This document shows positions 2,814 through 33,995 of a stretch of DNA of 50,447 nt, piece after piece (within the stretch, counting starts at the first letter, position 1; every line of letters begins with the position of its first letter). Source of the DNA: a virus (lineage: Duplodnaviria; Caudoviricetes); IMG/VR virus record IMGVR_UViG_3300020045_006640, positions 1 to 50,447 of that record, one strand, 5' to 3'. The position numbers and the translations under genes were made by a program. The notes beneath the pieces are model-generated. The model ran no database searches and was not told where the DNA came from. It was given only the letters and a program-made list of their open reading frames with translations.

Positions 2814-4480
2814 CCATTCAATTACGTGACTATCAGCAACGGGCTGACAATGAAATCATGGCGGCTTGGGCTGGCGGTGCACGAAATGTGCTGTACGTTT
2901 GCCCAACGGGCGGCGGTAAGTCGATCAATCTTAGCCATGACACGTTGCGCGATTATCAGCGGAACGTTCAACAGCTTACGGTTGCACATCGTCAGGAACT
3001 GATCGGGCAAATGTCGCTGCATACGGCGCGTGTCGGTGTGCCGCATCAAATCATCGGACCGAAAGCACTGATTGCAAATATCACCGCTGAACATCGTCGC
3101 GAGTTTGGCCGGTCATTCATCGTTCCTGGCGCGAATTGCTCGGTCGGATCGGTGGACACGCTTATGGCGCGGCAATCCGACATTGAAGGCACGTCATGGG
3201 CTGCACAAATGGGCAAGGTCCGTTGTGATGAAGGCCACCACTGGTTGCTAGGCAACAAATGGGGCACGTCGCTTGGATGGTTTACCAATGCGCTCGGTTT
3301 GTCGGTGTCCGCAACCCCGCAACGTGCTGACGGGCAAGGGCTTGGGCGGCATGCGGACGGTGTGATTGACCATATGGTGCTGGCACCAACCATGCGCGAA
3401 CTGATCGACATGGGCGCGTTGACGGATTACCAAATGGTCATTCCGACAACCGACTATCACAGCGAGAATTTGAACGTCACGCCGGGCGGTGATTTCAGCC
3501 CGAAACAGATGAAACAGGAAAGCGAACGCAGCCGCATATATGGCGACGTGGTTGTGAATTATTGCCGGTTCGCGCTCGGTAAACAGGCAATTGTGTTTGC
3601 GACCGATGTTGAAACATCGAACAAGATGGCCGCACAGTTCAACCTGTTTGGTATTTCTGCCGCGTCCGTATCTGCCAACACGCCCGATGATGTTCGTTCG
3701 GAATACATTCGACGTTTCCGGGCTGGTACAATCAAGGTTCTTTGCAACGTCGATTTGTTCGGTGAAGGGTTTGACCTTCCTGCAATTGAAGTTGTGATTA
3801 TGGCACGCCCGACAAATTCGCTCGCTGTCTATCTGCAACAGATCGGACGCGCGTTGCGCCTCATGCCCGGCAAGTTGTTTGGCTTGATCATCGATATGGT
3901 CAGCAACTTCAAGCGGCACGGGTTCCCCGACAAGCGGCGCGAATGGTCGCTGGATCGTCGCGAAAAGCGCGCCAAGATGGCACCCGATCCGGATGAAGTC
4001 GAACTGACACATTGCCTGAAGTGTTACAAGCCGTTTGAGGCTGTGCACCGCGTCTGTCCGCATTGCGGTGAACCCGTGGTCAAGCTGGCACCAGGGGAAA
4101 CGGGCGGGCGCTCGATTGAACAGGTTGACGGTGATCTGATGATGCTAGATGCGGCAATGCTGAAGGCAATGCGTGAAGCCGTCGAACTGCCTAACGCTGC
4201 GTCAGAAGGTCAACGGCGCTCGCATGGGGCATTTGGCGGCGGCAATGCCGCTGACCACTTCGCGGCTATCCAGCAAGCTAAGATTGACGCTCAGCGGGCA
4301 CTCTCGGATGTAATCGACCTTTGGGCTGGTCAGCGGGTTGCCGGTGGCGATAGCCTAGAAAACGTTTATCGCAGATTTTACAAAACAATGGGTGTCGATA
4401 CCCTGTCCGTGCTGCACAAGGATCGCACCAGGGCGGACTATGACAAGACCCGCGAACTGGTTGAAGGCTGGCTGAAATGA
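2810..4480 (+). CDS. Superfamily 2 DNA helicase with C-terminal zinc finger
   Basis: LRDYQ, PTGGGKS, DEGHH, SAT, EGFDLP, QQIGRALR; CxxC...CPHC. Confidence 0.92.
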   Translation: MTIQLRDYQQRADNEIMAAWAGGARNVLYVCPTGGGKSINLSHDTLRDYQRNVQQLTVAHRQELIGQMSLHTARVGVPHQIIGPKALIANITAEHRREFGRSFIVPGANCSVGSVDTLMARQSDIEGTSWAAQMGKVRCDEGHHWLLGNKWGTSLGWFTNALGLSVSATPQRADGQGLGRHADGVIDHMVLAPTMRELIDMGALTDYQMVIPTTDYHSENLNVTPGGDFSPKQMKQESERSRIYGDVVVNYCRFALGKQAIVFATDVETSNKMAAQFNLFGISAASVSANTPDDVRSEYIRRFRAGTIKVLCNVDLFGEGFDLPAIEVVIMARPTNSLAVYLQQIGRALRLMPGKLFGLIIDMVSNFKRHGFPDKRREWSLDRREKRAKMAPDPDEVELTHCLKCYKPFEAVHRVCPHCGEPVVKLAPGETGGRSIEQVDGDLMMLDAAMLKAMREAVELPNAASEGQRRSHGAFGGGNAADHFAAIQQAKIDAQRALSDVIDLWAGQRVAGGDSLENVYRRFYKTMGVDTLSVLHKDRTRADYDKTRELVEGWLK

Positions 4481-15337: not shown

Positions 15338-15555
15338 CCGAACGTTATGCTCGTGTAATTCTGTACGATTTGAATTGCGATCATCCGAACCATGATCGCA
15401 ACGCTTTTGCGCGCATGGATATGAGCGATCCGGATGCAAATGAATATTCTTCACAAGATTGGGAAACGCTTGGCGATGCGCGCGCTGCCGCCCGGCGCTC
15501 TGGTTGGATCATTCGTGGCGGCAAAAGCTATTGCCCACGGTGCGGTTCGAAATAA
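15334..15555 (+). CDS. Hypothetical zinc-binding protein
   Basis: LNCDH...ARRSGW......YCPRC. Confidence 0.6.
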   Translation: MTERYARVILYDLNCDHPNHDRNAFARMDMSDPDANEYSSQDWETLGDARAAARRSGWIIRGGKSYCPRCGSK

Positions 15556-17327
15556 TGCAATCAACTGACCTATTCGATTGGATTGCACGCCCGTATGAAC
15601 CCGGTGACGCACCCGCATGGCGTCCGGAACCGCTCGATCACGCCCATTGGCCACCGGATTACAAAGCGGTGTATGCGTGGCGCGTGAAACAATTGCAGCG
15701 CATTCGCAGTGATCCGAACATGTTGGCTGGTGCCCTGGCATATTACAGCGAACCGGAACATGCCGGTGAATTCATCATGCATTGGATGGATACTTACAAC
15801 CCGCGCGTTGTCGGTGCAATGAAATGGATGCCATTCATTTTCTTCAAGCGTCAGGATGAATTCATTACGTTCCTGACCGAATTGGAACGCGATCAGGAAA
15901 GCGGCCTAGTCGAAAAAGCGCGTGACGTTGGCCTGACATGGCTGTGCGTTGGTTACAGCGTTTGGAAATGGCTGTTCTGCGATGAAAGTGCAGTCGGTTG
16001 GGGATCGCGCAAGGAAGCCCTGGTTGACAAGCTTGGCGATCCGGACAGCATCTTTGAAAAGCTGCGATTGGTCATCCGTCGCTTGCCGAAAGAATTCCTG
16101 CCGTCCGGATTTGTTCAGAAAGAACACATGACGTTCATGCGGCTGATCAATCCGGCAAATGGTGCGGTTGTGATCGGTGAAGCTGGCGACAACATCGGTC
16201 GCGGCGGGCGTAAAACGATCTATTTCAAGGATGAAAGCGCGCATTACGAACGGCCCGATCTGATTGAAGCATCCTTGGGCGACAACACGAACGTTCAGGT
16301 TGATATTTCCAGCGTGAACGGGTTGGGCAATGTGTTTCACAGGCGACGTGAGGAAGGCATTGACTGGACACCCGCAAACGACTGGACGCAACACCCTGGC
16401 AAAACCCGCGTGTTTGTTGTGGATTGGCGCGATCATCCGGCCAAAACACAGGCATGGTACGATCAGCGCCGCGCCAAATGGGAAAGCGAAGGGCTGCTAT
16501 ACAAATTCAAACAGGAAGTTGATCGCGATTATTCGGGCGCAATTGAAAACACGATTATTGATGCTGCATGGATCAAGGCAGCGATTGACGCACACCTGAA
16601 ATTCAAATGGATCGATGATGCTGGCTGCAAACGCATTGGGTTGCCCGACGAACGGCTATCGTCCGATTGGATGGCAGCGCTAGACGTTGCCGATGGTGGT
16701 GGCGATAGGAACGCCCTGGTGGCGCGTCAGGGCATGGTGTTGCGCTCAGCCGTCGAATGGGGCGAGCGGGATACCGGCGTGACCACACGGCGCACCGCTG
16801 ACGGGCTGAAGCACCATCGCGGCATTCTGGTGCAGTATGACAGCATTGGTGTCGGCAGTGGCGTGAAGGCTGAATGGAACCGTCTGGTTGAAGCGAATGA
16901 AGTTGATCCGAACTTGATCAATTTCGTTCCCTGGAATGCTGGCGCGTCCGTGGTCAATCCATATGATCACATCATTGAAGGCGACACGGAAAGCGCCCGC
17001 AACAAAGATTTCTTTGGCAACTTCAAGGCACAGGCTTGGTGGTCATTGCGCATGCGCTTTTGGCGCACCTATCAGAACATCGTTCAGGGTGTCATTCACG
17101 ATCCGGACGAAATGATCAGCATTGACAGCAACATTCCGCTGTTGCGTCAGCTTGAAAAGGAACTAGCACAACCGACGATCAGCCCGAACGGATCGCTGAA
17201 ACAGATTGTTGACAAAAAGCCCGACAACACCCGTTCACCCAATCTTGCCGATGGTGTCGTTATGTGTTATTTCCCTGTTGAGCATTATCAAGGTTCCTTG
17301 GTCGGAACCTATTCACAAGCCGCATAG
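15555..17327 (+). CDS. terL: Terminase large subunit
   Basis: EKARDVGLTW (Walker A), YFKDESAH (Walker B), ALDVADGGGD nuclease motif, SPNLAD. Confidence 0.93.
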   Translation: MQSTDLFDWIARPYEPGDAPAWRPEPLDHAHWPPDYKAVYAWRVKQLQRIRSDPNMLAGALAYYSEPEHAGEFIMHWMDTYNPRVVGAMKWMPFIFFKRQDEFITFLTELERDQESGLVEKARDVGLTWLCVGYSVWKWLFCDESAVGWGSRKEALVDKLGDPDSIFEKLRLVIRRLPKEFLPSGFVQKEHMTFMRLINPANGAVVIGEAGDNIGRGGRKTIYFKDESAHYERPDLIEASLGDNTNVQVDISSVNGLGNVFHRRREEGIDWTPANDWTQHPGKTRVFVVDWRDHPAKTQAWYDQRRAKWESEGLLYKFKQEVDRDYSGAIENTIIDAAWIKAAIDAHLKFKWIDDAGCKRIGLPDERLSSDWMAALDVADGGGDRNALVARQGMVLRSAVEWGERDTGVTTRRTADGLKHHRGILVQYDSIGVGSGVKAEWNRLVEANEVDPNLINFVPWNAGASVVNPYDHIIEGDTESARNKDFFGNFKAQAWWSLRMRFWRTYQNIVQGVIHDPDEMISIDSNIPLLRQLEKELAQPTISPNGSLKQIVDKKPDNTRSPNLADGVVMCYFPVEHYQGSLVGTYSQAA

Positions 17328-17780: not shown

Positions 17781-19496
17781 ATGCGTCCGATTTTGACACC
17801 GAGCCGTCACGCTGTTCTGTGCAGCGCTTATGCCCTGTCACCAAGCGCAACGCCGACACCTGAACAGATGCGAATGTCGGGCTTGGTCGCGCAAAGCCGT
17901 ATGGCGGTGGTTCCCCCTGGCGCGACCATTGCCAGCGAAAACGTCTCGATTGCCGCCCGTGACAGCCGCACCGCGATCAACGGTGAAGATTTGAACAAGA
18001 TCGACATTGGTTCGCGCGACTGGCACGCCATGATCGGCTATTGGCAGAAAACCAGCGACATTGTTGACGGTGCCGAACGCATGCGCGATCAGCACGCGCT
18101 GTATTTGCCGCAATTCCCCAATGAAAGCGATCCGAGTTATACGTTCCGTTGGAAGAATGCGAAATTCACCAACGTCTATCGCGACATTGTGGAAAATCTC
18201 GCATCCAAGCCGTTTGAACAAGAAGTCACGCTGTCCGGTGCGGTCAACAAATCCAATGACGACACGGTTATTCCGCAAGCGTTTCTGGATTTTGTTGAGG
18301 ACGTTGACGGATCGGGCAACACGCTCAGCACCTTTGCGGCTGATACGTTTTTCGACGGTATCAATTCAACAATCGATTGGATTTTCGTTGATTACTCGAA
18401 TATTGAAGCCGGAACACGCACAGTTGCCGATGAAAAGCGTTTGGGCATTCGTCCGTTTTGGTCGCATGTCAAAGCTGCCAACGTTCTTGAAGTTCGGTCG
18501 AAAGTGATCAACGGAAAAGAACAGATCAACTTTTTCCGCATGCTCGAATTTGAAGCGGACGTGAAACACGTTCGGATTATCGAGCGTGACAACGCTGGTG
18601 TCTGGTGGCACCTTTATCGTGAACTTCCTGCGTCACAGGTCAAATCTGTTCGGTTTGAACTGATTGACAGCGGCGTGATGACTATTCCGGTTATTCCGAT
18701 GGTGCCATTCGTCACCGGGCGGCGCGTTGGTCGATCCTGGCAGTTCCGCCCAATGTTGCGCGATGCTGCTGATTTGCAGATCGAATTGTTTCAGGACGAA
18801 AGCGGCCTGAAGAACATCAAAGCGCTGTCCGGATTTCCGATCCTGACAGCCAATGGTGTCGCACCACCAACCATCGGTTCCGGTGCAAACAAGAAAATCC
18901 AAACAATTCAGGTTGGCCCTGAAACCATCCTGTACGCACCACCGTCAGGCCAGGGCGGCACATCCGGATCGTGGCAGTATATCCAGCCCGACGCTTCCGT
19001 GATGACGTTCCTGCAATCCGATGTGCAAAAGACCATCGATCAGTTGCGCGAACTTGGGCGCAATCCGCTCACAGCACAGACAGCCGGTGTCACCGTCATC
19101 AACAGCGCAACCGCTGCCAAGAAAACAAGCACCACCGTTCAGCTTTGGGCGCTTGGGTTGAAGAATGCGCTTGAAAACGCTCTGGTGATCACCGGTATGT
19201 GGTTGAACATTCCGCAAACGCAGTACGATCCTGAAGTGTTTGTGTTCACCGATTTCGATGTGATGGGCTCGCTTGAAGATTTGACCGCGCTGATTGAAGC
19301 GCGCAAGAACGGCGATATCAGCCGCGAAACGCTTTGGCACGAAATGGTTCGGCGCGGTATCCTGTCCGGTGAATTCGATCCGGAATTGGAAATTGAACGT
19401 ATTCTTGAAGATATGGTTGATTTGACAGTCGATCCGAACGCTGTTGACTTGCCAGACGACGAACCGCCCGCTAACGTGCCGCCTGTGGCGTCATAG
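17781..19496 (+). CDS. Portal protein (DUF4055-type)
   Basis: Follows terL; YLPQFPNES...Y..R, DVDGSGNTL, IPMVPF, ISRETLWHEMVRRGIL. Confidence 0.85.
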   Translation: MRPILTPSRHAVLCSAYALSPSATPTPEQMRMSGLVAQSRMAVVPPGATIASENVSIAARDSRTAINGEDLNKIDIGSRDWHAMIGYWQKTSDIVDGAERMRDQHALYLPQFPNESDPSYTFRWKNAKFTNVYRDIVENLASKPFEQEVTLSGAVNKSNDDTVIPQAFLDFVEDVDGSGNTLSTFAADTFFDGINSTIDWIFVDYSNIEAGTRTVADEKRLGIRPFWSHVKAANVLEVRSKVINGKEQINFFRMLEFEADVKHVRIIERDNAGVWWHLYRELPASQVKSVRFELIDSGVMTIPVIPMVPFVTGRRVGRSWQFRPMLRDAADLQIELFQDESGLKNIKALSGFPILTANGVAPPTIGSGANKKIQTIQVGPETILYAPPSGQGGTSGSWQYIQPDASVMTFLQSDVQKTIDQLRELGRNPLTAQTAGVTVINSATAAKKTSTTVQLWALGLKNALENALVITGMWLNIPQTQYDPEVFVFTDFDVMGSLEDLTALIEARKNGDISRETLWHEMVRRGILSGEFDPELEIERILEDMVDLTVDPNAVDLPDDEPPANVPPVAS

Positions 19497-19577
19497 CGTT
19501 TGGATCACCCGTCAAGGGTTCACGGTCGCGAATTGGCTTTTGGGTTGGGTTCGCTCCAATCCGCCACAATCAACCCG

Positions 19578-19627
19578 TTGCCTGATGGTTGGATGACCTA
19601 GGGCGCATTTGGCCGGATGGCCGGAAA
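19578..19627 (+). promoter_or_regulatory. Twin GGAU-loop hairpin 5' leader element (copy 1, scaffold)
   Basis: GGTT-GGAT-GACC and GGCC-GGAT-GGCC; same layout at 21058. Confidence 0.55.
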
Positions 19628-19636
19628 GACTGAAAT

Positions 19637-20485
19637 ATGTTCAAGACACTGAAGCCCGCTTTGCTCGCATCCGTCGCCCTGGTCACGCCCTACATGCCCT
19701 GGAAGGTCGTCAAGACCAAAGCGGATGACGGCACCGAAATTGAAGTGATCGCCACCAAGGATGGCAACCCCGTCTGGCTGGACAGCAACGGTTCTGAAAG
19801 CGTCATGGCCGGTGACACGGTTTCCCGGCTGAACAAGGAAGCCAAGGACAACCGCGAACGTGCTGAAGCCGCTGAAGGCAAGTTGAAGCCGTTTGAAGGT
19901 CTTGACCCTGCAAAGGCGCGTGACGCGCTTGCACTGGCTGATAAGATCGACAAGAAACAGCTTCTTGACGCTGGCAAGGTCGATGAACTGACGGCACAGA
20001 TCACCAACCAGTTCACGGAAAAACTGACGGCTGCTGAAAAGCGCACCCAGGAACTTACCGGAACGCTCAACCAACGCACGCTTGAAGCACAGTTCGGCAA
20101 GTCCGAATTCGTCAAGGACAAACTCGCGTTGCCGATGGATGTTGCACAAACCTATTTTTCGCGCAACATCAAGTTCGATGACAACGGCAATATGGCGTTT
20201 GAATATTCGGACGGCAACCCGATCATGTCCAAGGAAAAGATCGGTGAAAAGGCCGGTTTTGATGAAGCCATGTCGCTGCTGGTCGAAAGCAATCCGAACC
20301 GTGACGCGCTGCTGAAGGGCGGAAATCACCAGGGCAGCGGCAACAATGGCGGCGGCGGTGGCGGCAAGCCGGGCGTCAAGACCTATCGGCGCAGTGAAGT
20401 TGACAAGATGGCTGTTGACAATCCCCAGGCCATGTCCGCTGCTATGGCCGAAGTGAACGCCGGTACGGCTCAGCTAGTCGAATAA
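19637..20485 (+). CDS. Capsid scaffolding protein (DUF6651-like)
   Basis: DGNPVW.D..G.E, coiled coil, GLDPAKARDAL, LLDAGKVDE, Gly-rich C-terminus; between portal and capsid. Confidence 0.8.
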   Translation: MFKTLKPALLASVALVTPYMPWKVVKTKADDGTEIEVIATKDGNPVWLDSNGSESVMAGDTVSRLNKEAKDNRERAEAAEGKLKPFEGLDPAKARDALALADKIDKKQLLDAGKVDELTAQITNQFTEKLTAAEKRTQELTGTLNQRTLEAQFGKSEFVKDKLALPMDVAQTYFSRNIKFDDNGNMAFEYSDGNPIMSKEKIGEKAGFDEAMSLLVESNPNRDALLKGGNHQGSGNNGGGGGGKPGVKTYRRSEVDKMAVDNPQAMSAAMAEVNAGTAQLVE

Positions 20486-20513
20486 CACGAAATCCCCCTA
20501 GTGGGTTGATCAG

Positions 20514-20557
20514 ACGGTGCGCTAGGTTCGCGGGTTCCTAGCGCACCGTTCTGTTTT
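20514..20557. terminator. Terminator between convergent genes
   Basis: 13-bp stem ACGGTGCGCTAGG/CCTAGCGCACCGT with a T-rich tail. Confidence 0.75.
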
Positions 20558-20807
20558 ACGGCTTCATTCCCCTTTTTGCATAAAGCGCAACACCATCAAA
20601 AATCATGTTGCGCGGAAATTGTTTGTACGTGTGCAGATTGCAACCATACACTTTCGGGATTTCAACAATTACCTGTTCAATGCCGCGCGACGGCTTGACG
20701 TGCGGACTGTGAAAGGCGGCGTGGATCAGTTCGGGCGTTGGTGCCTCAACCGTGCATTGCCCGGTGATCATGTTGCAGATCATGAATGTTGTGTGTTGCT
20801 CGGTCAT
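20556..20807 (-). CDS. Hypothetical protein (antisense cassette 1)
   Basis: MTEQHTTF..., ATGA-coupled to upstream gene. Confidence 0.55.
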   Translation of the reverse strand: MTEQHTTFMICNMITGQCTVEAPTPELIHAAFHSPHVKPSRGIEQVIVEIPKVYGCNLHTYKQFPRNMIFDGVALYAKRGMKP

Positions 20808-20932
20808 GCTGAAAGCCGATCCACTTCCTTTTGCCAAAAGGCAATTTCTTCGGACCATGAAAATTTACCTTTGTACGGCGGTTTTGCCTTGTAATATGCA
20901 AGGCGACTTTCAGCGTATTGCAATTCTGACAT
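20804..20932 (-). CDS. Hypothetical 42-aa protein (antisense cassette 1)
   Basis: Not in the track; TTTGGAG RBS; MSELQYAESRLAYYKAKPPYKGKFSWSEEIAFWQKEVDRLSA. Confidence 0.55.
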   Translation of the reverse strand: MSELQYAESRLAYYKAKPPYKGKFSWSEEIAFWQKEVDRLSA

Positions 20933-20962
20933 GTCGGGCACTCCAAACGGGTTGATTGCTGA

Positions 20963-20991
20963 TCATTACAACCCGTTGCGGGCCGTGTCAA
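20963..20991 (-). promoter_or_regulatory. Repeated early-type promoter P1
   Basis: TTGACA-cggcccgcaacgggttg-TAATGA (17-bp spacer). Confidence 0.7.
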
Positions 20992-21057
20992 GCGTCATCC
21001 CCAAGATTTATGATCACCAACCGTTGACAGCCAACCGTGTTACATAGTAACGATGAT

Positions 21058-21108
21058 TTGCCGTGCTTGTTCGGATGGACAGCGGCGCTAGGGCTGGATG
21101 GTCCGAAA
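21058..21108 (+). promoter_or_regulatory. Twin GGAU-loop hairpin 5' leader element (copy 2, capsid)
   Basis: TGTTC-GGAT-GGACA and GGGCT-GGAT-GGTCC; TTGACA at 21024 upstream. Confidence 0.55.
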
Positions 21109-21147: not shown

Positions 21148-22404
21148 ATGATCCGCACCACCGTTCGTGGCACCCGCGCCCAGGCGCGCAACGCCGTTCT
21201 TCTTTCCGGGCTCGCAATGCCCGCGCTCGCTCTTGGCGCACCGCTCGAAATGACCGGCGCTTATGCCAACACGCTGACCCGTCTGCTTCCCGATCTTTAT
21301 GCCGCGCTGAACTATGTTTCGCGTGAACTGATCGGCTTTCTGCCCGGCGTGAACCGCAACACTGGTGCCGAACGTGCCGCTGTTGGCCAGTCGGTTGTTT
21401 GGCCCATCGCGCCCCAGGCCAACCTTGTCGCCATTGCCCCGGCTATGCAGGTTTCCGAACCGGCTGATCAGGTCATCGGCAACAGTTCGATCACGCTGAC
21501 CCAGGCTTATGCGGCTGAATTCGGCTGGAATGGTGAAGAACAGCGCGGCCTGAACACCGGCCCTGGCTATCTGACGATCAATCAGCAGCAGATGGCCCAG
21601 GCTTTCCGCAAGCTGGCCAACCAGATCGAAAGCGATGTTGCTGGCGGGCTGTATATCGCTGCCTCGCGTGCTTTCGGCACCGCTGGCACGACGCCGTTCG
21701 CAACTGACCTGTCCGCATCCGCTGGCGTCAAGAAAATCCTTCTTGATAACGGTGCCGATCCGTCCGCTCAGTCGCTTGTGATCGACACCACCGCTGGCGC
21801 GAACATGCGCAACCTGCTGAACCTGACGCGCGTCAATGAAGCCGGTTCGCAAATGACGCTTCGCGATGGTGAACTTCTGCCGCTGCATGGCTTCAGCATC
21901 CGTGAAAGCGGTCAGTCGAAGTTCCATACCAAGGGCACCGGCACGCTCTACACCACCAGCGGCACCGCGCTTCCGGTCGGCACCAAGTCCATTCCGCTGA
22001 TCACCGGTTCCGGTACGGTCAAGGCTGGCGACGTGGTGACGTTCGCTGGCGATACGAACAAGTACGTTGTTGGCACGGGCGTTGCGGCTCCTGGCACCAT
22101 CGTTCTGAACGGCCCTGGCCTTCGCGTGGCAATCCCTGCCGCTGCAACCGCCATGACCATCGGCAACAGCTACACGGCCAACGTTGCCTTTGCTCAGTCG
22201 TCGTTCGGGTTCGCCTCGCGTCCGCCCGCAATGCCCGCTGAAGGCGATCTGCGCATGGACAGCTTCCTGATCACGGATGCACGCAGCGGCCTGACCTTTG
22301 AAGTTTCGGTGTGGCCCGGCTCGCGCAAGGTCAAGTATGAAATCGCCCTGGTTTGGGGTTGGGCACCGCTCAACTCGGACGGTATCGCACTGCTTCTTGG
22401 TTAA
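21148..22404 (+). CDS. Major capsid protein (P22 coat-like family)
   Basis: ANTLT.L.P.LY.AL..VSREL.GF, QAFRKLANQIE, TD.RSGLTFEV, WG; strong codon bias; follows scaffold. Confidence 0.88.
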   Translation: MIRTTVRGTRAQARNAVLLSGLAMPALALGAPLEMTGAYANTLTRLLPDLYAALNYVSRELIGFLPGVNRNTGAERAAVGQSVVWPIAPQANLVAIAPAMQVSEPADQVIGNSSITLTQAYAAEFGWNGEEQRGLNTGPGYLTINQQQMAQAFRKLANQIESDVAGGLYIAASRAFGTAGTTPFATDLSASAGVKKILLDNGADPSAQSLVIDTTAGANMRNLLNLTRVNEAGSQMTLRDGELLPLHGFSIRESGQSKFHTKGTGTLYTTSGTALPVGTKSIPLITGSGTVKAGDVVTFAGDTNKYVVGTGVAAPGTIVLNGPGLRVAIPAAATAMTIGNSYTANVAFAQSSFGFASRPPAMPAEGDLRMDSFLITDARSGLTFEVSVWPGSRKVKYEIALVWGWAPLNSDGIALLLG

Positions 22405-33455: not shown

Positions 33456-33995
33456 ATGAAGAAAATGGCTCTTTTGACCGCTGCCCTTTCGGGCTCAACC
33501 GTCACCCTGGCAACGCCGTTTGCCGACACCAATTCCGGGCGCAAGTTCTATGTTTGCGCCACCGTGCAGCCAACCGATCTGATCGCCAGCGCCTTTGCGG
33601 CCCTGACTTGGGTTGAAGTGAAGGGTGTCGGCAATCTCGGTGAAACCGGCAACAATCAGAACATCCTGACCTATGACGAATGGGCAACCGATGTTGTCCA
33701 GAAGGGCAAGGGCAACACTGACGCCGGTTCGCCCGAACTGGAATGCCGCCGCATCCCGACCGATCCGGGCCAAATTCTCATGCGTTCGCTTGCGCTGTTG
33801 CCCGGCAACTACGCATTCAAGACTGAAGCCAACAACGCACCGGAACCGGGCGGCACCGGAACGATCAAGTACAATCGCGGCATTGTCACCGGTCCGCGCA
33901 ATCCGAACGGACGCGGTGAAGATTTCGAGCTAGATATCTTCACGCTCGGTCTTAACCAGCGTCAGATCACGGTTGAACCGACCGAAGCGCCCTAA
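33456..33995 (+). CDS. Major tail tube protein
   Basis: W.EV.GVGNLGE.G, KGKG..DAGS, DPGQ; position and codon bias. Confidence 0.82.
   Translation: MKKMALLTAALSGSTVTLATPFADTNSGRKFYVCATVQPTDLIASAFAALTWVEVKGVGNLGETGNNQNILTYDEWATDVVQKGKGNTDAGSPELECRRIPTDPGQILMRSLALLPGNYAFKTEANNAPEPGGTGTIKYNRGIVTGPRNPNGRGEDFELDIFTLGLNQRQITVEPTEAP

What the first reader, a model, noticed from the sequence alone, without database searches (positions are those of the whole stretch)
19578..21108. Twin GGAU-tetraloop RNA motif duplicated in the scaffold and capsid 5' leaders
Seen in sequence: both leaders read TTGCC-[stem, GGAT loop]-GGC-GC-few nt-[stem, GGAT loop]-(G)GAAA (19578-19627 and 21058-21108). The four stems differ in sequence (GGTT/GACC, GGCC/GGCC, TGTTC/GGACA, GGGCT/GGTCC) yet pair using G-U, which points to RNA-level selection. 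Established: CsrA/RsmA proteins bind paired GGA loops, and P22 scaffolding protein autoregulates its own translation. Inference: a translational operator that sets scaffold:capsid stoichiometry, or an assembly-related RNA signal.
Basis: partly seen in the sequence, partly recalled or inferred. Interest (0 to 1): 0.7.

Follow-up and report, generated by a model that had tools for sequence, protein, structure and literature searches.

The report
GGA-loop RNA hairpins before head genes
Two short RNA hairpins with the same GGAU loop sit in front of the scaffold gene and again in front of the capsid gene of this phage, and the same design recurs in many related phages and prophages, so it is very likely a real, still unnamed control element for making virus-shell proteins.

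Summary
Four GGAU-tetraloop hairpins lie at 19587-19598, 19608-19625, 21067-21082 and 21091-21104. They form two twin units in the scaffold and capsid leaders. 500 shuffles gave a mean of 0.014 twins and never two.

The motif is conserved. A covariance model finds it, nearly always on the coding strand, directly upstream of scaffold, capsid or (in five phages) major-tail genes. It scores E<1e-3 in 134 of 160 loci fetched by scaffold homology. Hosts include Alpha-, Beta- and Gammaproteobacteria, Planctomycetes and an Acidobacterium; a cyanophage carries it too. In a set not used for training the stems are 94-99% paired, with many compensatory changes.

It follows the DUF6651 scaffold gene across three capsid families. 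It is absent from 43 of 43 capsid relatives whose records lack DUF6651. It matches no Rfam family.

Host CsrA cannot be the general partner: it is absent from the window and from five of five alpha/beta host genomes tested.

My best reading is a translational operator and 5' leader element bound by a factor encoded in the head module, most likely the scaffold protein. That binding is inferred, not shown.

First readers of this scan noted the same motif on at least six other genomes.

The parts
19579..19605 (+). Unit A of the scaffold-leader motif. An outer helix (TGCCT 19579-19583 pairing with AGGGCG 19601-19605) encloses hairpin 1.
   Evidence: Fold of 19578-19627. The GCC/GGC outer helix recurs in relatives, 75.5% paired in the independent set.
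19587..19598 (+). Hairpin 1: GGTT-GGAT-GACC, a 4-bp stem with a U-G closing pair and a GGAU tetraloop.
19601..19606 (+). Conserved linker GGGCGC (family consensus G-G-C/U-G-C). The fourth base, G, is invariant in 84 of 84 distinct model-aligned rows.
19608..19625 (+). Hairpin 2: TTTGGCC-GGAT-GGCCGGA, up to 7 bp. Its 3' arm overlaps the likely Shine-Dalgarno sequence.
19623..19628 (+). Likely Shine-Dalgarno sequence GGAAAG of the scaffold gene, 8 nt before the ATG.
   Evidence: Read from the sequence. Relatives show GGAG/GGAAAG/AAGGAG directly after the last hairpin. That it is the Shine-Dalgarno sequence is an inference.
19637..20485 (+). Head scaffolding protein gene (282 aa): DUF6651, phrog_784 and phrog_206.
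   Evidence: ESM Atlas look-alikes carry PF06810 Phage_scaffold. Structure model has pLDDT 86.
20513..20552 (.). GC-rich hairpin followed by a T-run after the scaffold gene, terminator-like. It separates the scaffold gene from the minus-strand cassette.
   Evidence: Sequence. The hairpin is visible in a chance Rfam alignment at 20515-20550. The simple terminator scan did not list it.
20556..20941 (-). Minus-strand small ORFs (100 aa and 45 aa) between scaffold and capsid genes, with no family match. They interrupt the head operon, so the capsid gene needs its own leader.
   Evidence: A similar minus-strand insert is annotated in phage P106B.
21059..21087 (+). Unit A of the capsid-leader motif. 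An outer helix (TGCCGT pairing with GCGGCG) encloses hairpin 1.
   Evidence: Fold of 21058-21108.
21067..21082 (+). Hairpin 1: TTGTTC-GGAT-GGACAG, 5-6 bp, GGAU loop.
21084..21088 (+). Conserved linker GGCGC.
21091..21104 (+). Hairpin 2: GGGCT-GGAT-GGTCC, 5 bp with G-U and U-G pairs.
21148..22404 (+). Major capsid protein gene (418 aa): P22 coat-like PF11651, phrog_283. Homology with most relatives begins near residue 40.

Best explanation
The two sites are copies of a conserved structured RNA leader motif that matches no Rfam family.

Anatomy:
- A first hairpin with a GGAU tetraloop, nested in a GCC/GGC outer helix.
- A G-G-C/U-G-C linker.
- One to three further simple hairpins with GGAN tetraloops, where N is U far more often than A, then C, and almost never G.
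- The closing pair is C-G or U-G, and hairpins recur about every 21-26 nt.

Where it occurs: the motif belongs to phage head modules that encode a DUF6651-type scaffolding protein. It sits in the 5' leaders of the scaffold gene, often of the capsid gene, and sometimes of the major tail gene.

Most likely mechanism (inferred, not shown): it acts on the mRNA as a translational operator. A multimeric factor encoded by the head module, most likely unassembled scaffolding protein, recognises the repeated GGAN loops. In the scaffold leader the last hairpin abuts or overlaps the Shine-Dalgarno sequence. Binding there would block the 30S subunit and give autogenous, assembly-coupled control like that known genetically for P22 scaffold. 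In capsid and tail leaders the motif lies further from the start codon, and probably at or near the 5' end of a promoter-proximal transcript (inferred). There the same binding, or the 5'-terminal helix alone, would adjust message stability or translation.

Confidence by layer: about 0.9 that this is a real, selected RNA element acting in cis on these genes; about 0.4 that the scaffold protein is the binder.
For: Shown:
1. Structure under selection. In 84 distinct model hits from bacterial-genome prophages, none of them used for training, the two hairpin helices are 94.5% and 98.8% paired, and all 7 of their pairs show changes on both sides. The covariation score is 0.576 against 0.220 in shuffles (0 of 500 reach it) and at most 0.118 when partners are slid. 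The capsid-seeded set gives a similar result.
2. Strand and place. All 45 hits at E<1e-3 in the capsid-related set are on the gene strand; 25 of them were the training sequences themselves. 114 of 114 hits and 91 of 92 hits at E<=1 in the scaffold-related sets are also on the gene strand. Every hit checked lies directly upstream of a scaffold, capsid or tail ORF.
3. Operator-like geometry. Of 99 non-redundant scaffold leaders, 97 have 1-3 GGAN hairpins. The last GGA is 18-26 nt before the AUG in 68 of those 97. In the leader sequences printed for 60 of them, that hairpin is commonly followed at once by GGAG, GGAAAG or AAGGAG.
4. Sequence-specific loops. Loop counts are GGAU 194, GGAA 30, GGAC 6 and GGAG 0. 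GGAG would be the best anti-Shine-Dalgarno match, so simple Shine-Dalgarno mimicry is unlikely.
5. Dependence on the scaffold family.
   - The motif scores E<1e-3 in 134 of 160 scaffold-related loci, and 12 of the 15 loci without any hit carry GGAA/GGAC variants.
   - The scaffold pairs with three capsid PHROG families: 283, 247 and 212.
   - 63 of 160 loci have no match to the window's capsid.
   - 43 of 43 capsid relatives whose record lacks DUF6651 lack the motif. Nine of these records are at least 98% complete.
   - In L037's phage the scaffold gene lies about 5 kb from a capsid leader that still carries the motif.
6. Not a general host signal. In 40 whole host genomes, 41 of 43 hits at E<=0.01 fall inside the known scaffold loci (only the top 132 candidates per genome were scored).
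7. Not in Rfam 15.

From the literature: the N-terminus of P22 scaffolding protein is implicated in translational autoregulation. I saw this as a passage in the introduction of bioRxiv 10.1101/2022.12.13.520362.
Against: - No binding test was possible, and no tool here models RNA-protein complexes.
- The scaffold model (pLDDT 86) shows no recognisable RNA-binding fold. Foldseek found nothing at E<=0.001 and VIA-align gave a best Z of 4.2, all to coiled coils.
- The raw association between the fourth loop base (U or A) and a scaffold sequence motif (TISRLN or KIxELN) holds in 131 of 142 proteins. On the tree it collapses to 4 independent pairs on supported branches, with no consistent direction.
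- A copy in front of the major tail gene in five phages fits a leader for high-copy virion proteins at least as well as scaffold autoregulation.
- Repressing the capsid gene when scaffold is in excess would be counter-productive, so different outcomes at different leaders must be assumed.
- Mixed GGAU and GGAA loops occur within one leader, for example in HK639.
- Three DUF6651 loci (L154, L210, L214) lack GGAN hairpins in the scaffold leader.
- P22 itself has only 13 nt before gene 8 and no motif. The P22 precedent is therefore an analogy only.
Confidence: 0.42

Rival explanations
1. The motif is a protein-independent cis element for the highest-copy virion proteins. The outer helix and hairpins form a 5'-terminal or processed-end structure that protects the message from 5'-end-dependent decay. 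The exposed GGA loops give weak, repeated contacts with the 30S anti-Shine-Dalgarno sequence (a standby site) and so raise initiation at the adjacent true Shine-Dalgarno sequence. On this view the tie to DUF6651 reflects only joint inheritance of gene and leader, followed by duplication within the genome.
For: - The motif precedes exactly the three most abundant structural proteins: scaffold, capsid and, in five phages, the major tail protein.
- In tail leaders, and in some capsid leaders, a sigma70-like promoter ends 5-7 nt before the outer helix. The helix would then sit at the very 5' end of the RNA (an inference from the sequence).
- It works across many host phyla, which needs only universal machinery.
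- In some leaders the last loop lies at Shine-Dalgarno distance from the AUG, with GGA at -8 to -14 in 14 of 97.
- No RNA-binding fold is seen in the scaffold model.
Against: - GGAG, the best anti-Shine-Dalgarno match, is absent from 230 loops.
- The loop sequence and an unpaired linker G are nearly invariant. A mere stabiliser does not need that.
- A generic enhancer should spread. Yet it is absent from 43 of 43 capsid relatives without DUF6651 and from the rest of 40 host genomes.
- Many scaffold-leader copies follow a terminator, not a promoter.
Confidence: 0.25
2. The hairpins are binding sites for a CsrA/RsmA-type protein of the host, or of the phage where it carries one. That protein represses translation by bridging GGA loops next to the Shine-Dalgarno sequence.
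For: - CsrA proteins recognise short hairpins with GGA in the loop. I saw this in the abstract and passages of PMC7366521.
- Tandem sites with one at the Shine-Dalgarno sequence are the classical CsrA layout (recalled).
- As I recall it, the CsrB repeat is CAGGA(U/C/A)G. That would match GGA(U/A/C)G here, including the absence of G at the fourth position.
- Many carriers are prophages of Gammaproteobacteria, which have CsrA.
- 2 of 33 motif-bearing viral records encode a CsrA homologue at 85-88 bits.
Against: - PF02599 is absent from the window.
- It is absent from 5 of 5 host genomes tested: Rhizobium, Xanthobacter, Methyloversatilis, Aquitalea and Azospirillum. Controls gave hits in E. coli, B. 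subtilis and Thermotoga. Four of the five carry prophages with a model hit at E<1e-3. Methyloversatilis has only variant hairpins.
- 31 of 33 viral records lack it.
- The window's nearest named relatives infect Rhizobium and Sinorhizobium. S. meliloti is stated to lack chromosomal csrA in PMC7366521 (passage).
- The base before GGA is C or U in 78 of 80 and 81 of 82 copies, not A or a purine.
- The motif is not found elsewhere in host genomes.
Confidence: 0.08
3. The motif is a transcription-level or processing signal. It could be a put- or nut-like RNA that makes RNA polymerase resist the terminators interrupting the late operon, or a site for endonucleolytic processing that uncouples scaffold and capsid messages from the upstream portal message.
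For: - Twin hairpins just downstream of promoters or terminators, in 1-3 copies per genome, recall HK022/HK639 put sites and lambda nut sites (recalled).
- A terminator T-run directly precedes the scaffold-leader motif in about two thirds of independent hits. It is annotated as a terminator in HK639.
- The window's head operon is interrupted by a terminator-like hairpin and a minus-strand cassette.
- Variant loops GUGAA and GCGAA in L041 and L016 look like GNRA-type pentaloops, as in boxB (the boxB comparison is recalled).
Against: - The tight spacing to the Shine-Dalgarno sequence and AUG in scaffold leaders is not needed for antitermination.
- Where capsid follows scaffold by 10-20 nt, a single copy directly before the scaffold gene suffices.
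- No copy precedes the terminase, portal or other late genes in the window or in 33 other records.
- The stems are too short, at 4-7 bp, for RNase III.
Confidence: 0.1
4. The repeats are a DNA-level feature, such as direct GGATG repeats two helical turns apart bound by a transcription factor, or they are a chance similarity of two leaders.
For: The GGATG repeats are 23-24 bp apart. A palindromic CAACCCGTTG box abuts site 1 (first-reader note e1-6298607).
Against: - Compensatory stem changes and frequent U-G closing pairs would be C-A mismatches on the other strand.
- The orientation relative to the genes is strict.
- 0 of 500 shuffles give two twins.
Confidence: 0.02

Closest known systems
CsrA/RsmA target leaders and the FliW-CsrA-flagellin checkpoint
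   Same: Short hairpins expose GGA in the apical loop, arranged in tandem, with the last one at or next to the Shine-Dalgarno sequence. In the flagellin case (recalled) translation of a structural subunit is coupled to its assembly state.
   Different: - Most hosts tested, and the window itself, have no CsrA.
- A pyrimidine, not A or a purine, precedes GGA.
- The loops are tight tetraloops.
- There is an extra outer helix and a conserved GGCGC linker.
- The motif is confined to one phage head module.
Autoregulation of the P22 scaffolding protein (gene 8)
   Same: A phage scaffolding protein controls its own synthesis after transcription, and the N-terminus is implicated (passage in 10.1101/2022.12.13.520362). 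The window's capsid is P22 coat-like.
   Different: - As far as I recall, no RNA target has been defined for P22.
- P22 gene 8 has only a 13-nt intergenic space and no motif.
- The scaffold here is DUF6651. In one search it matched no other Pfam family, so none for a P22-type scaffold.
- The motif also precedes capsid and tail genes.
Translational operators of RNA phages (MS2, PP7, Qbeta coat protein) and the E. coli thrS operator (recalled)
   Same: A structural or dimeric protein binds hairpins with specific loops next to a ribosome binding site. In thrS, two similar stem-loops match a homodimer.
   Different: Those operators are single-gene and of different sequence. Here 1-4 repeated hairpins occur at two or three genes of a dsDNA phage, and the binder is unknown.
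HK022/HK639 put RNAs and lambda nut/boxB (recalled)
   Same: Paired stem-loops near the 5' ends of transcripts, in two or more copies per phage genome. HK639 carries the present motif before its scaffold gene.
   Different: - put and nut sites lie in the early operons and act on RNA polymerase.
- The present motif lies in late head and tail leaders, next to ribosome binding sites.
- No sequence comparison with put was made.
Rfam release 15 families
   Same: None.
   Different: - No match at gathering score in the whole window.
- No match in the motif region at E<=10.
- In 12 further loci at E<=1 there were two sub-threshold matches, both overlapping the scaffold-leader region in part. One was GA-cis at 25.3 bits against a cut-off of 34.7 (L171 2316-2423). 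The other was GadY at 26 bits against 45 (L227 2307-2389).

Membership tests
CsrA/RsmA binding-site arrays | GGA in the apical loop of short hairpins | tested here: met
   All four window hairpins. 230 of 230 loops are GGAN by construction of the scan, and 97 of 99 leaders have at least one.
CsrA/RsmA binding-site arrays | Two or more sites, one overlapping or abutting the Shine-Dalgarno sequence | tested here: met
   In the window's scaffold leader, hairpin 2 overlaps GGAAAG. The last GGA lies at -18 to -26 in 68 of 97 leaders. This is not met in the capsid leader, where the AUG is 43 nt downstream.
CsrA/RsmA binding-site arrays | A or a purine just upstream of GGA (A(N)GGA; consensus recalled, not from a call) | tested here: not met
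   The base before GGA is C or U in 78 of 80 copies of hairpin 1 and 81 of 82 copies of hairpin 2.
CsrA/RsmA binding-site arrays | A CsrA-family protein is available in the host or phage | tested here: not met
   PF02599 gave 0 hits in the window and 0 of 5 host genomes. It was found in 2 of 33 motif-bearing viral records. The window's own host is unknown.
Any Rfam 15 RNA family | A covariance-model match at the curated gathering score | tested here: not met
P22-type scaffold autoregulation | Free scaffold protein lowers its own synthesis after transcription | not testable with these tools
   This needs expression experiments. Only the analogy is available.
P22-type scaffold autoregulation | The same RNA element is present in P22 | tested here: not met
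   P22 gene 8 starts 13 nt after gene 1. The best model hit in the first 9 kb scores 12.4 bits and lies elsewhere.
put/nut-type antiterminator RNAs | Located downstream of early promoters and acting on RNA polymerase | tested here: inconclusive
   The location is in late head and tail leaders, next to ribosome binding sites. Action on the polymerase cannot be tested here.
DUF6651 / phage head scaffolding protein (the linked gene) | A Pfam DUF6651 match above the cut-off and a position between portal and capsid genes | tested here: met
   71.4 bits against a cut-off of 27. phrog_784 and phrog_206 'head scaffolding protein'.

The most novel reading that the evidence does not exclude
The DUF6651 scaffolding protein is a sequence-specific RNA-binding protein. 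When unassembled it binds the repeated GGAN tetraloops and so couples translation of the scaffold, capsid and, in some phages, tail genes to the progress of head assembly. That would give the first defined RNA operator for scaffold autoregulation. The operator is shared by phages of several bacterial phyla and by a prophage present in about 15% of complete E. coli genomes.
Probability: 0.35. Interest if true: 0.85.

Novelty: new variant of a known kind. Interest (0 to 1): 0.72.

Why it matters
Scaffold autoregulation has been known genetically in P22 for decades. As far as I recall and could find, its RNA target has never been defined.

This report describes a compact RNA element with covarying stems that is tied to one widespread scaffold family. 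It gives a concrete object to test.

- It occurs in cultivable systems: E. coli phage HK639, Rhizobium phage P106B, and a prophage found in 809 of 5,426 complete E. coli genomes.
- Reporter, gel-shift and toeprint experiments are therefore straightforward.
- If the scaffold protein is the binder, this is a general mechanism by which phages match the output of structural proteins to assembly.
- If no protein is needed, it is a portable leader that works across phyla and is of practical use for expression.
- Either way it is a candidate new RNA family for Rfam. It also corrects annotations: two tiny 'hypothetical' ORFs of P106B overlie it.

Tried and rejected
Tried without useful result:
1. Rfam: nothing at the motif.
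2. Fold energy: z-scores are not exceptional, so energy is not used as evidence.
3. Structure of the scaffold: a good model but no informative match by Foldseek on the PDB or by VIA-align wide (best Z 4.2, coiled coils). The N-terminal beta domain was barely tested. A profile search of PDB sequences gave 0 matches.
4. Protein-RNA co-evolution: a strong raw association that is not significant by independent pairs. Rows without any hairpin, and duplicate protein fragments, were dropped before the count.
5. RNA evidence: 14 RNA-library runs hold the E. coli prophage stretch as Logan contigs. Laying 4 runs gave no starts, ends or strand. The one raw-read run laid nothing. One contig pair breaks at the terminator in one run only. 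This is no evidence of transcription or processing.
6. P22: no leader and no motif.
7. Literature. None of these searches found a description of the motif, and papers outside the held library were not searched.
   - 'HK639/scaffold'.
   - 'scaffolding protein/autoregulation/P22/translation' (I read one passage).
   - 'DUF6651' (0 papers).
   - 'CsrA/prophage/capsid/GGA/CLIP-seq' (passages of PMC7366521 read).
   - 'GGAU/tetraloop/bacteriophage' (passages of PMC3014915 read, not relevant beyond noting that GGAU can serve as a Shine-Dalgarno sequence).
   - 'scaffolding protein/translational repression/...'.
   - Supplementary tables of PMC7366521, which list csrA-positive phages, were not opened. 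They might show whether those phages carry this scaffold.
8. The simple GGATG-N-GGATG pattern alone is not rare: 4 matches against 2.3 expected. The hairpin context is what makes the sites significant.
9. The promoter scan around site 2 gives only weak plus-strand candidates. The 5' end of the capsid message in the window remains unknown.

Considered and rejected: an SD-mimic made of GGAG (no GGAG loops); RNase III sites (stems too short); a DNA-binding site (covariation and G-U pairs).

Not done: complex prediction (it cannot take RNA, and a scaffold dimer pass would not change my odds); a second, broader covariance model; R-scape.


Full report
**What is in the window.**

The window is a 50,447-bp IMG/VR virus record with estimated completeness 93%. 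Its nearest named relatives are Rhizobium phages vB_RglS_P106B and RHph_X2_24.

Around the finding the plus strand encodes, in order:
- large terminase, 15459-17327;
- portal, 17781-19496;
- a 282-aa DUF6651 protein, phrog_206 'head scaffolding protein', 19637-20485;
- two small minus-strand ORFs, 20556-20941;
- a P22-coat-like major capsid protein, 21148-22404.

Each site has TTGCC, a first hairpin with loop GGAT, GGCGC, a second hairpin with loop GGAT, and then an A-rich stretch.

Folded alone, both units form the two hairpins. TGCC pairs with GGCG to make an outer helix around the first hairpin. The energies are not exceptional (z from -0.3 to -2.3), so energy is not my argument.

Two twin GGAT-loop hairpins in one window were never reached in 500 dinucleotide shuffles (mean 0.014).

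**The motif is conserved.**

I fetched 80 IMG/VR loci by homology to the capsid. A plain scan showed tandem stem-GGAT-stem hairpins on the gene strand upstream of capsid and scaffold genes in about 30 of them. The stems differed and the other strand had almost none.

Over all 256 possible tetraloops, GGAT is the commonest loop of hairpins with stems of at least 4 bp on the gene strand. It occurs 152 times against a mean of 57 (sd 24), and only 37 times on the opposite strand.

I built a covariance model from 25 twin units (A2, R1).
- It gave 45 hits at E<1e-3 in these loci and the window, all on the gene strand. 25 of them were the training sequences.
- Every hit lies directly upstream of a scaffold or capsid ORF. 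The exception is a third site in L034/L035.

I then fetched 160 further loci by homology to the scaffold: 80 viral and 80 from bacterial genomes.
- 134 of the 160 have a hit at E<1e-3 and 145 have one at E<=1. 205 of the 206 hits are on the gene strand. Many of these loci are near-duplicates.
- Of the 15 loci without a hit, 12 carry hairpins with GGAA or GGAC loops at the same place. Three (L154, L210, L214) do not.

Covariation was counted on the bacterial-genome set, none of which was used for training (84 distinct rows).
- The hairpin helices are 94.5% and 98.8% paired, and all seven of their pairs show changes on both sides.
- The covariation score is 0.576, against 0.220 in shuffles (0 of 500 reach it) and at most 0.118 with slid partners.
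- The outer helix is 75.5% paired.
- The alignment is fitted to the model, which favours pairing. The slide control and the frequent U-G closing pairs still point to an RNA structure on this strand.

**Anatomy across the family.**

99 non-redundant scaffold leaders had a recognisable MKLK-type start.
- 2 have no GGAN hairpin, 15 have one, 31 have two and 51 have three.
- The loops are GGAU 194, GGAA 30, GGAC 6 and GGAG 0.
- The last GGA lies 18-26 nt before the AUG in 68 of 97.
- In the leader sequences printed for 60 of them, the 3' arm of that hairpin is commonly followed at once by GGAG, GGAAAG or AAGGAG. In a minority the loop itself sits at Shine-Dalgarno distance.

In the model-aligned rows:
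- the base before GGA is C or U in about 96% of copies;
- the linker is G-G-C/U-G-C, and its fourth G is invariant in 84 of 84 rows.

In about two thirds of scaffold leaders a terminator T-run directly precedes the motif. HK639 has an annotated terminator there, followed by hairpins with GGAU, GGAU and GGAA loops and then a GGAG Shine-Dalgarno sequence.

In capsid leaders the motif is further from the AUG. The model hit ends 7-69 nt before the start.

**What the motif travels with.**

- It follows the DUF6651 scaffold gene. That scaffold pairs with three capsid PHROG families: 283 in the window, 247 in L103, L194 and L185, and 212 in L163.
- 63 of the 160 scaffold loci have no tblastn match to the window's capsid.
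- Conversely, I examined 45 capsid relatives that had neither a tblastn scaffold match nor a model hit.
  - 43 come from records without DUF6651, and none of these has the motif. Nine of the records are at least 98% complete.
  - One (L041) has a divergent DUF6651 and two leader hairpins with GUGAA and GCGAA loops.
  - One (L078) has its leader off the locus.
- L037 and L021, which have a capsid-leader motif but no scaffold in the locus, do have DUF6651 elsewhere in the record. In L037's phage it is about 5 kb away.
- So whether a capsid leader carries the motif depends on which scaffold the genome encodes.
- In 40 whole host genomes, 41 of 43 hits at E<=0.01 fall inside the known scaffold loci (only the top 132 candidates per genome were scored).
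- In whole phage records the motif occurs once to three times.
- The distal copies that I examined lie in five phages: L035's, plus G012, G016, G018 and G035. Each precedes a phrog_158 major tail protein gene. In four of the five a TTGACA box and a -10-like box stand just upstream.
- The window has only the two sites. Its tail gene at 33456 has none.

**Who binds it?**

- PF02599 is absent from the window.
- It is absent from five of five alpha/beta host genomes examined. Four of them carry prophages with a model hit at E<1e-3, and Methyloversatilis has only variant hairpins. The controls gave hits in E. coli, B. subtilis and Thermotoga.
- Only 2 of 33 motif-bearing viral records encode a CsrA homologue, and both belong to one group of proviruses.
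- The resemblance to CsrA sites is still real: GGA loops, tandem copies, and one copy at the Shine-Dalgarno sequence. In Gammaproteobacteria CsrA might bind as well.

The scaffold protein is the only gene always present.
- Its model is confident (pLDDT 86). It has an N-terminal four-strand beta unit, long helices, a small alpha/beta domain, a glycine-rich linker and a C-terminal helical hairpin.
- It has no informative structural or sequence match in the PDB.
- ESM Atlas look-alikes carry PF06810 Phage_scaffold.

I tested for co-evolution between the fourth loop base and the scaffold segment TISRLN or KIxELN. The two agree in 131 of 142 proteins. Only four independent contrasts lie on supported branches, and they show no consistent direction. 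The test is inconclusive.

Anecdotally, the scaffolds with the most altered LNxEAKxHR segment (L041, L154, L214) have altered or missing loops. L210 is a counter-example.

**Reading.**

A selected RNA structure acting in cis on these messages is well supported. For the mechanism I favour a translational operator bound by a factor encoded in the head module, most likely free scaffold. My reasons are:
- the operator-like spacing to the Shine-Dalgarno sequence;
- the near-invariant loops, with GGAG absent;
- the repeated units, which suit a multimeric binder;
- the dependence on the scaffold family in trans;
- the P22 precedent of translational autoregulation through the scaffold N-terminus (passage in 10.1101/2022.12.13.520362).

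The main rival is a protein-independent leader, a 5' stabiliser plus ribosome standby site for the highest-copy virion proteins. The tail-gene copies and the position close to promoters favour it.

P22 itself has no such leader.

**Novelty and context.**

- There is no Rfam match, and six literature searches found no description.
- First readers of this scan noted the same kind of hairpins on at least six other genomes. A follow-up report describes a related GNGAY-loop hairpin on head genes of a cyanobacterial virus. I did not test those records.
- I did see the canonical motif in the capsid leader of Synechococcus phage Yong-M4-211.
- The motif is present in a prophage found in 809 of 5,426 complete E. 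coli genomes. This makes experiments easy.
- Public RNA-library contigs hold that prophage stretch, but they say nothing about transcript ends.

Noticed in passing
window 19637-19700, 21148-21260, 33456-33520; also L082, L015, L024, L003, L051, L035: In the window and its closer relatives the scaffold, major capsid and major tail proteins all begin with a 20-35-aa hydrophobic, signal-peptide-like extension. Examples are MFKTLKPALLASVALV..., ...AVLLSGLAMPALALGAP... and MKKMALLTAALSG.... More distant homologues lack it; their scaffolds start at MKLKLD and capsid homology begins near residue 40. It could be a shared propeptide or targeting segment. These are the same three genes that carry the RNA motif in relatives.
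   Followed up: partly
G021:C1:16159-16311 and G025:C1:16684-16836 (records of L103 and L121): Two proviruses carry three GGAU hairpins before the scaffold gene and also encode a CsrA-family protein (85-88 bits). A phage with both GGA-loop leaders and its own CsrA is worth a look.
   Followed up: no
L041:2760-2830; L016 about 3160-3210; L154:2430-2500: Variant leaders. L041 has two hairpins with GUGAA and GCGAA loops. L016 has GCGAA and GGAA hairpins after four GGAU hairpins. L154 has three hairpins with unrelated loops. L041 and L154 also have the most divergent scaffold LNxEAKxHR segment.
   Followed up: partly
L082:4285-4353 (P106B); L012, L034, L054 capsid leaders; L244, L245 tail leaders: Between the motif and the Shine-Dalgarno sequence, many capsid and tail leaders of the AT-rich relatives have a further hairpin of the form GGYGCGC-loop-GCGCRCC. 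Its role is unknown.
   Followed up: no
L082:4115-4361 (P106B_07, P106B_08): Two annotated tiny 'hypothetical protein' ORFs of phage P106B overlie the capsid-leader motif (model hit 4221-4284). They are probably not genes.
   Followed up: partly
window 19571-19580: The palindrome CAACCCGTTG abuts the TTGCC that opens site 1. Another first-reader note reports it in the minus-strand cassette promoters; the copy at about 20969 is visible.
   Followed up: no
L176:2418-2446, L243:2868-2889 and many scaffold leaders: An intrinsic-terminator-like hairpin with a T-run directly precedes the scaffold-leader motif, in the middle of the late head operon. In one RNA-library run the assembled contigs break exactly there, which proves nothing.
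   Followed up: partly
L176 (Escherichia ruysiae) and 809 of 5,426 complete E. coli genomes: A prophage with the DUF6651 scaffold, a P22-like capsid and both leader motifs is very common in E. coli. PGAP annotates the gene only as 'DUF6651 domain-containing protein'.
   Followed up: partly
A6 column 57 (window 19605 and 21087): The fourth base (G) of the GGCGC linker is invariant in 84 of 84 distinct model-aligned rows, although it lies outside the modelled helices. It may make a specific contact or a tertiary pair.
   Followed up: no
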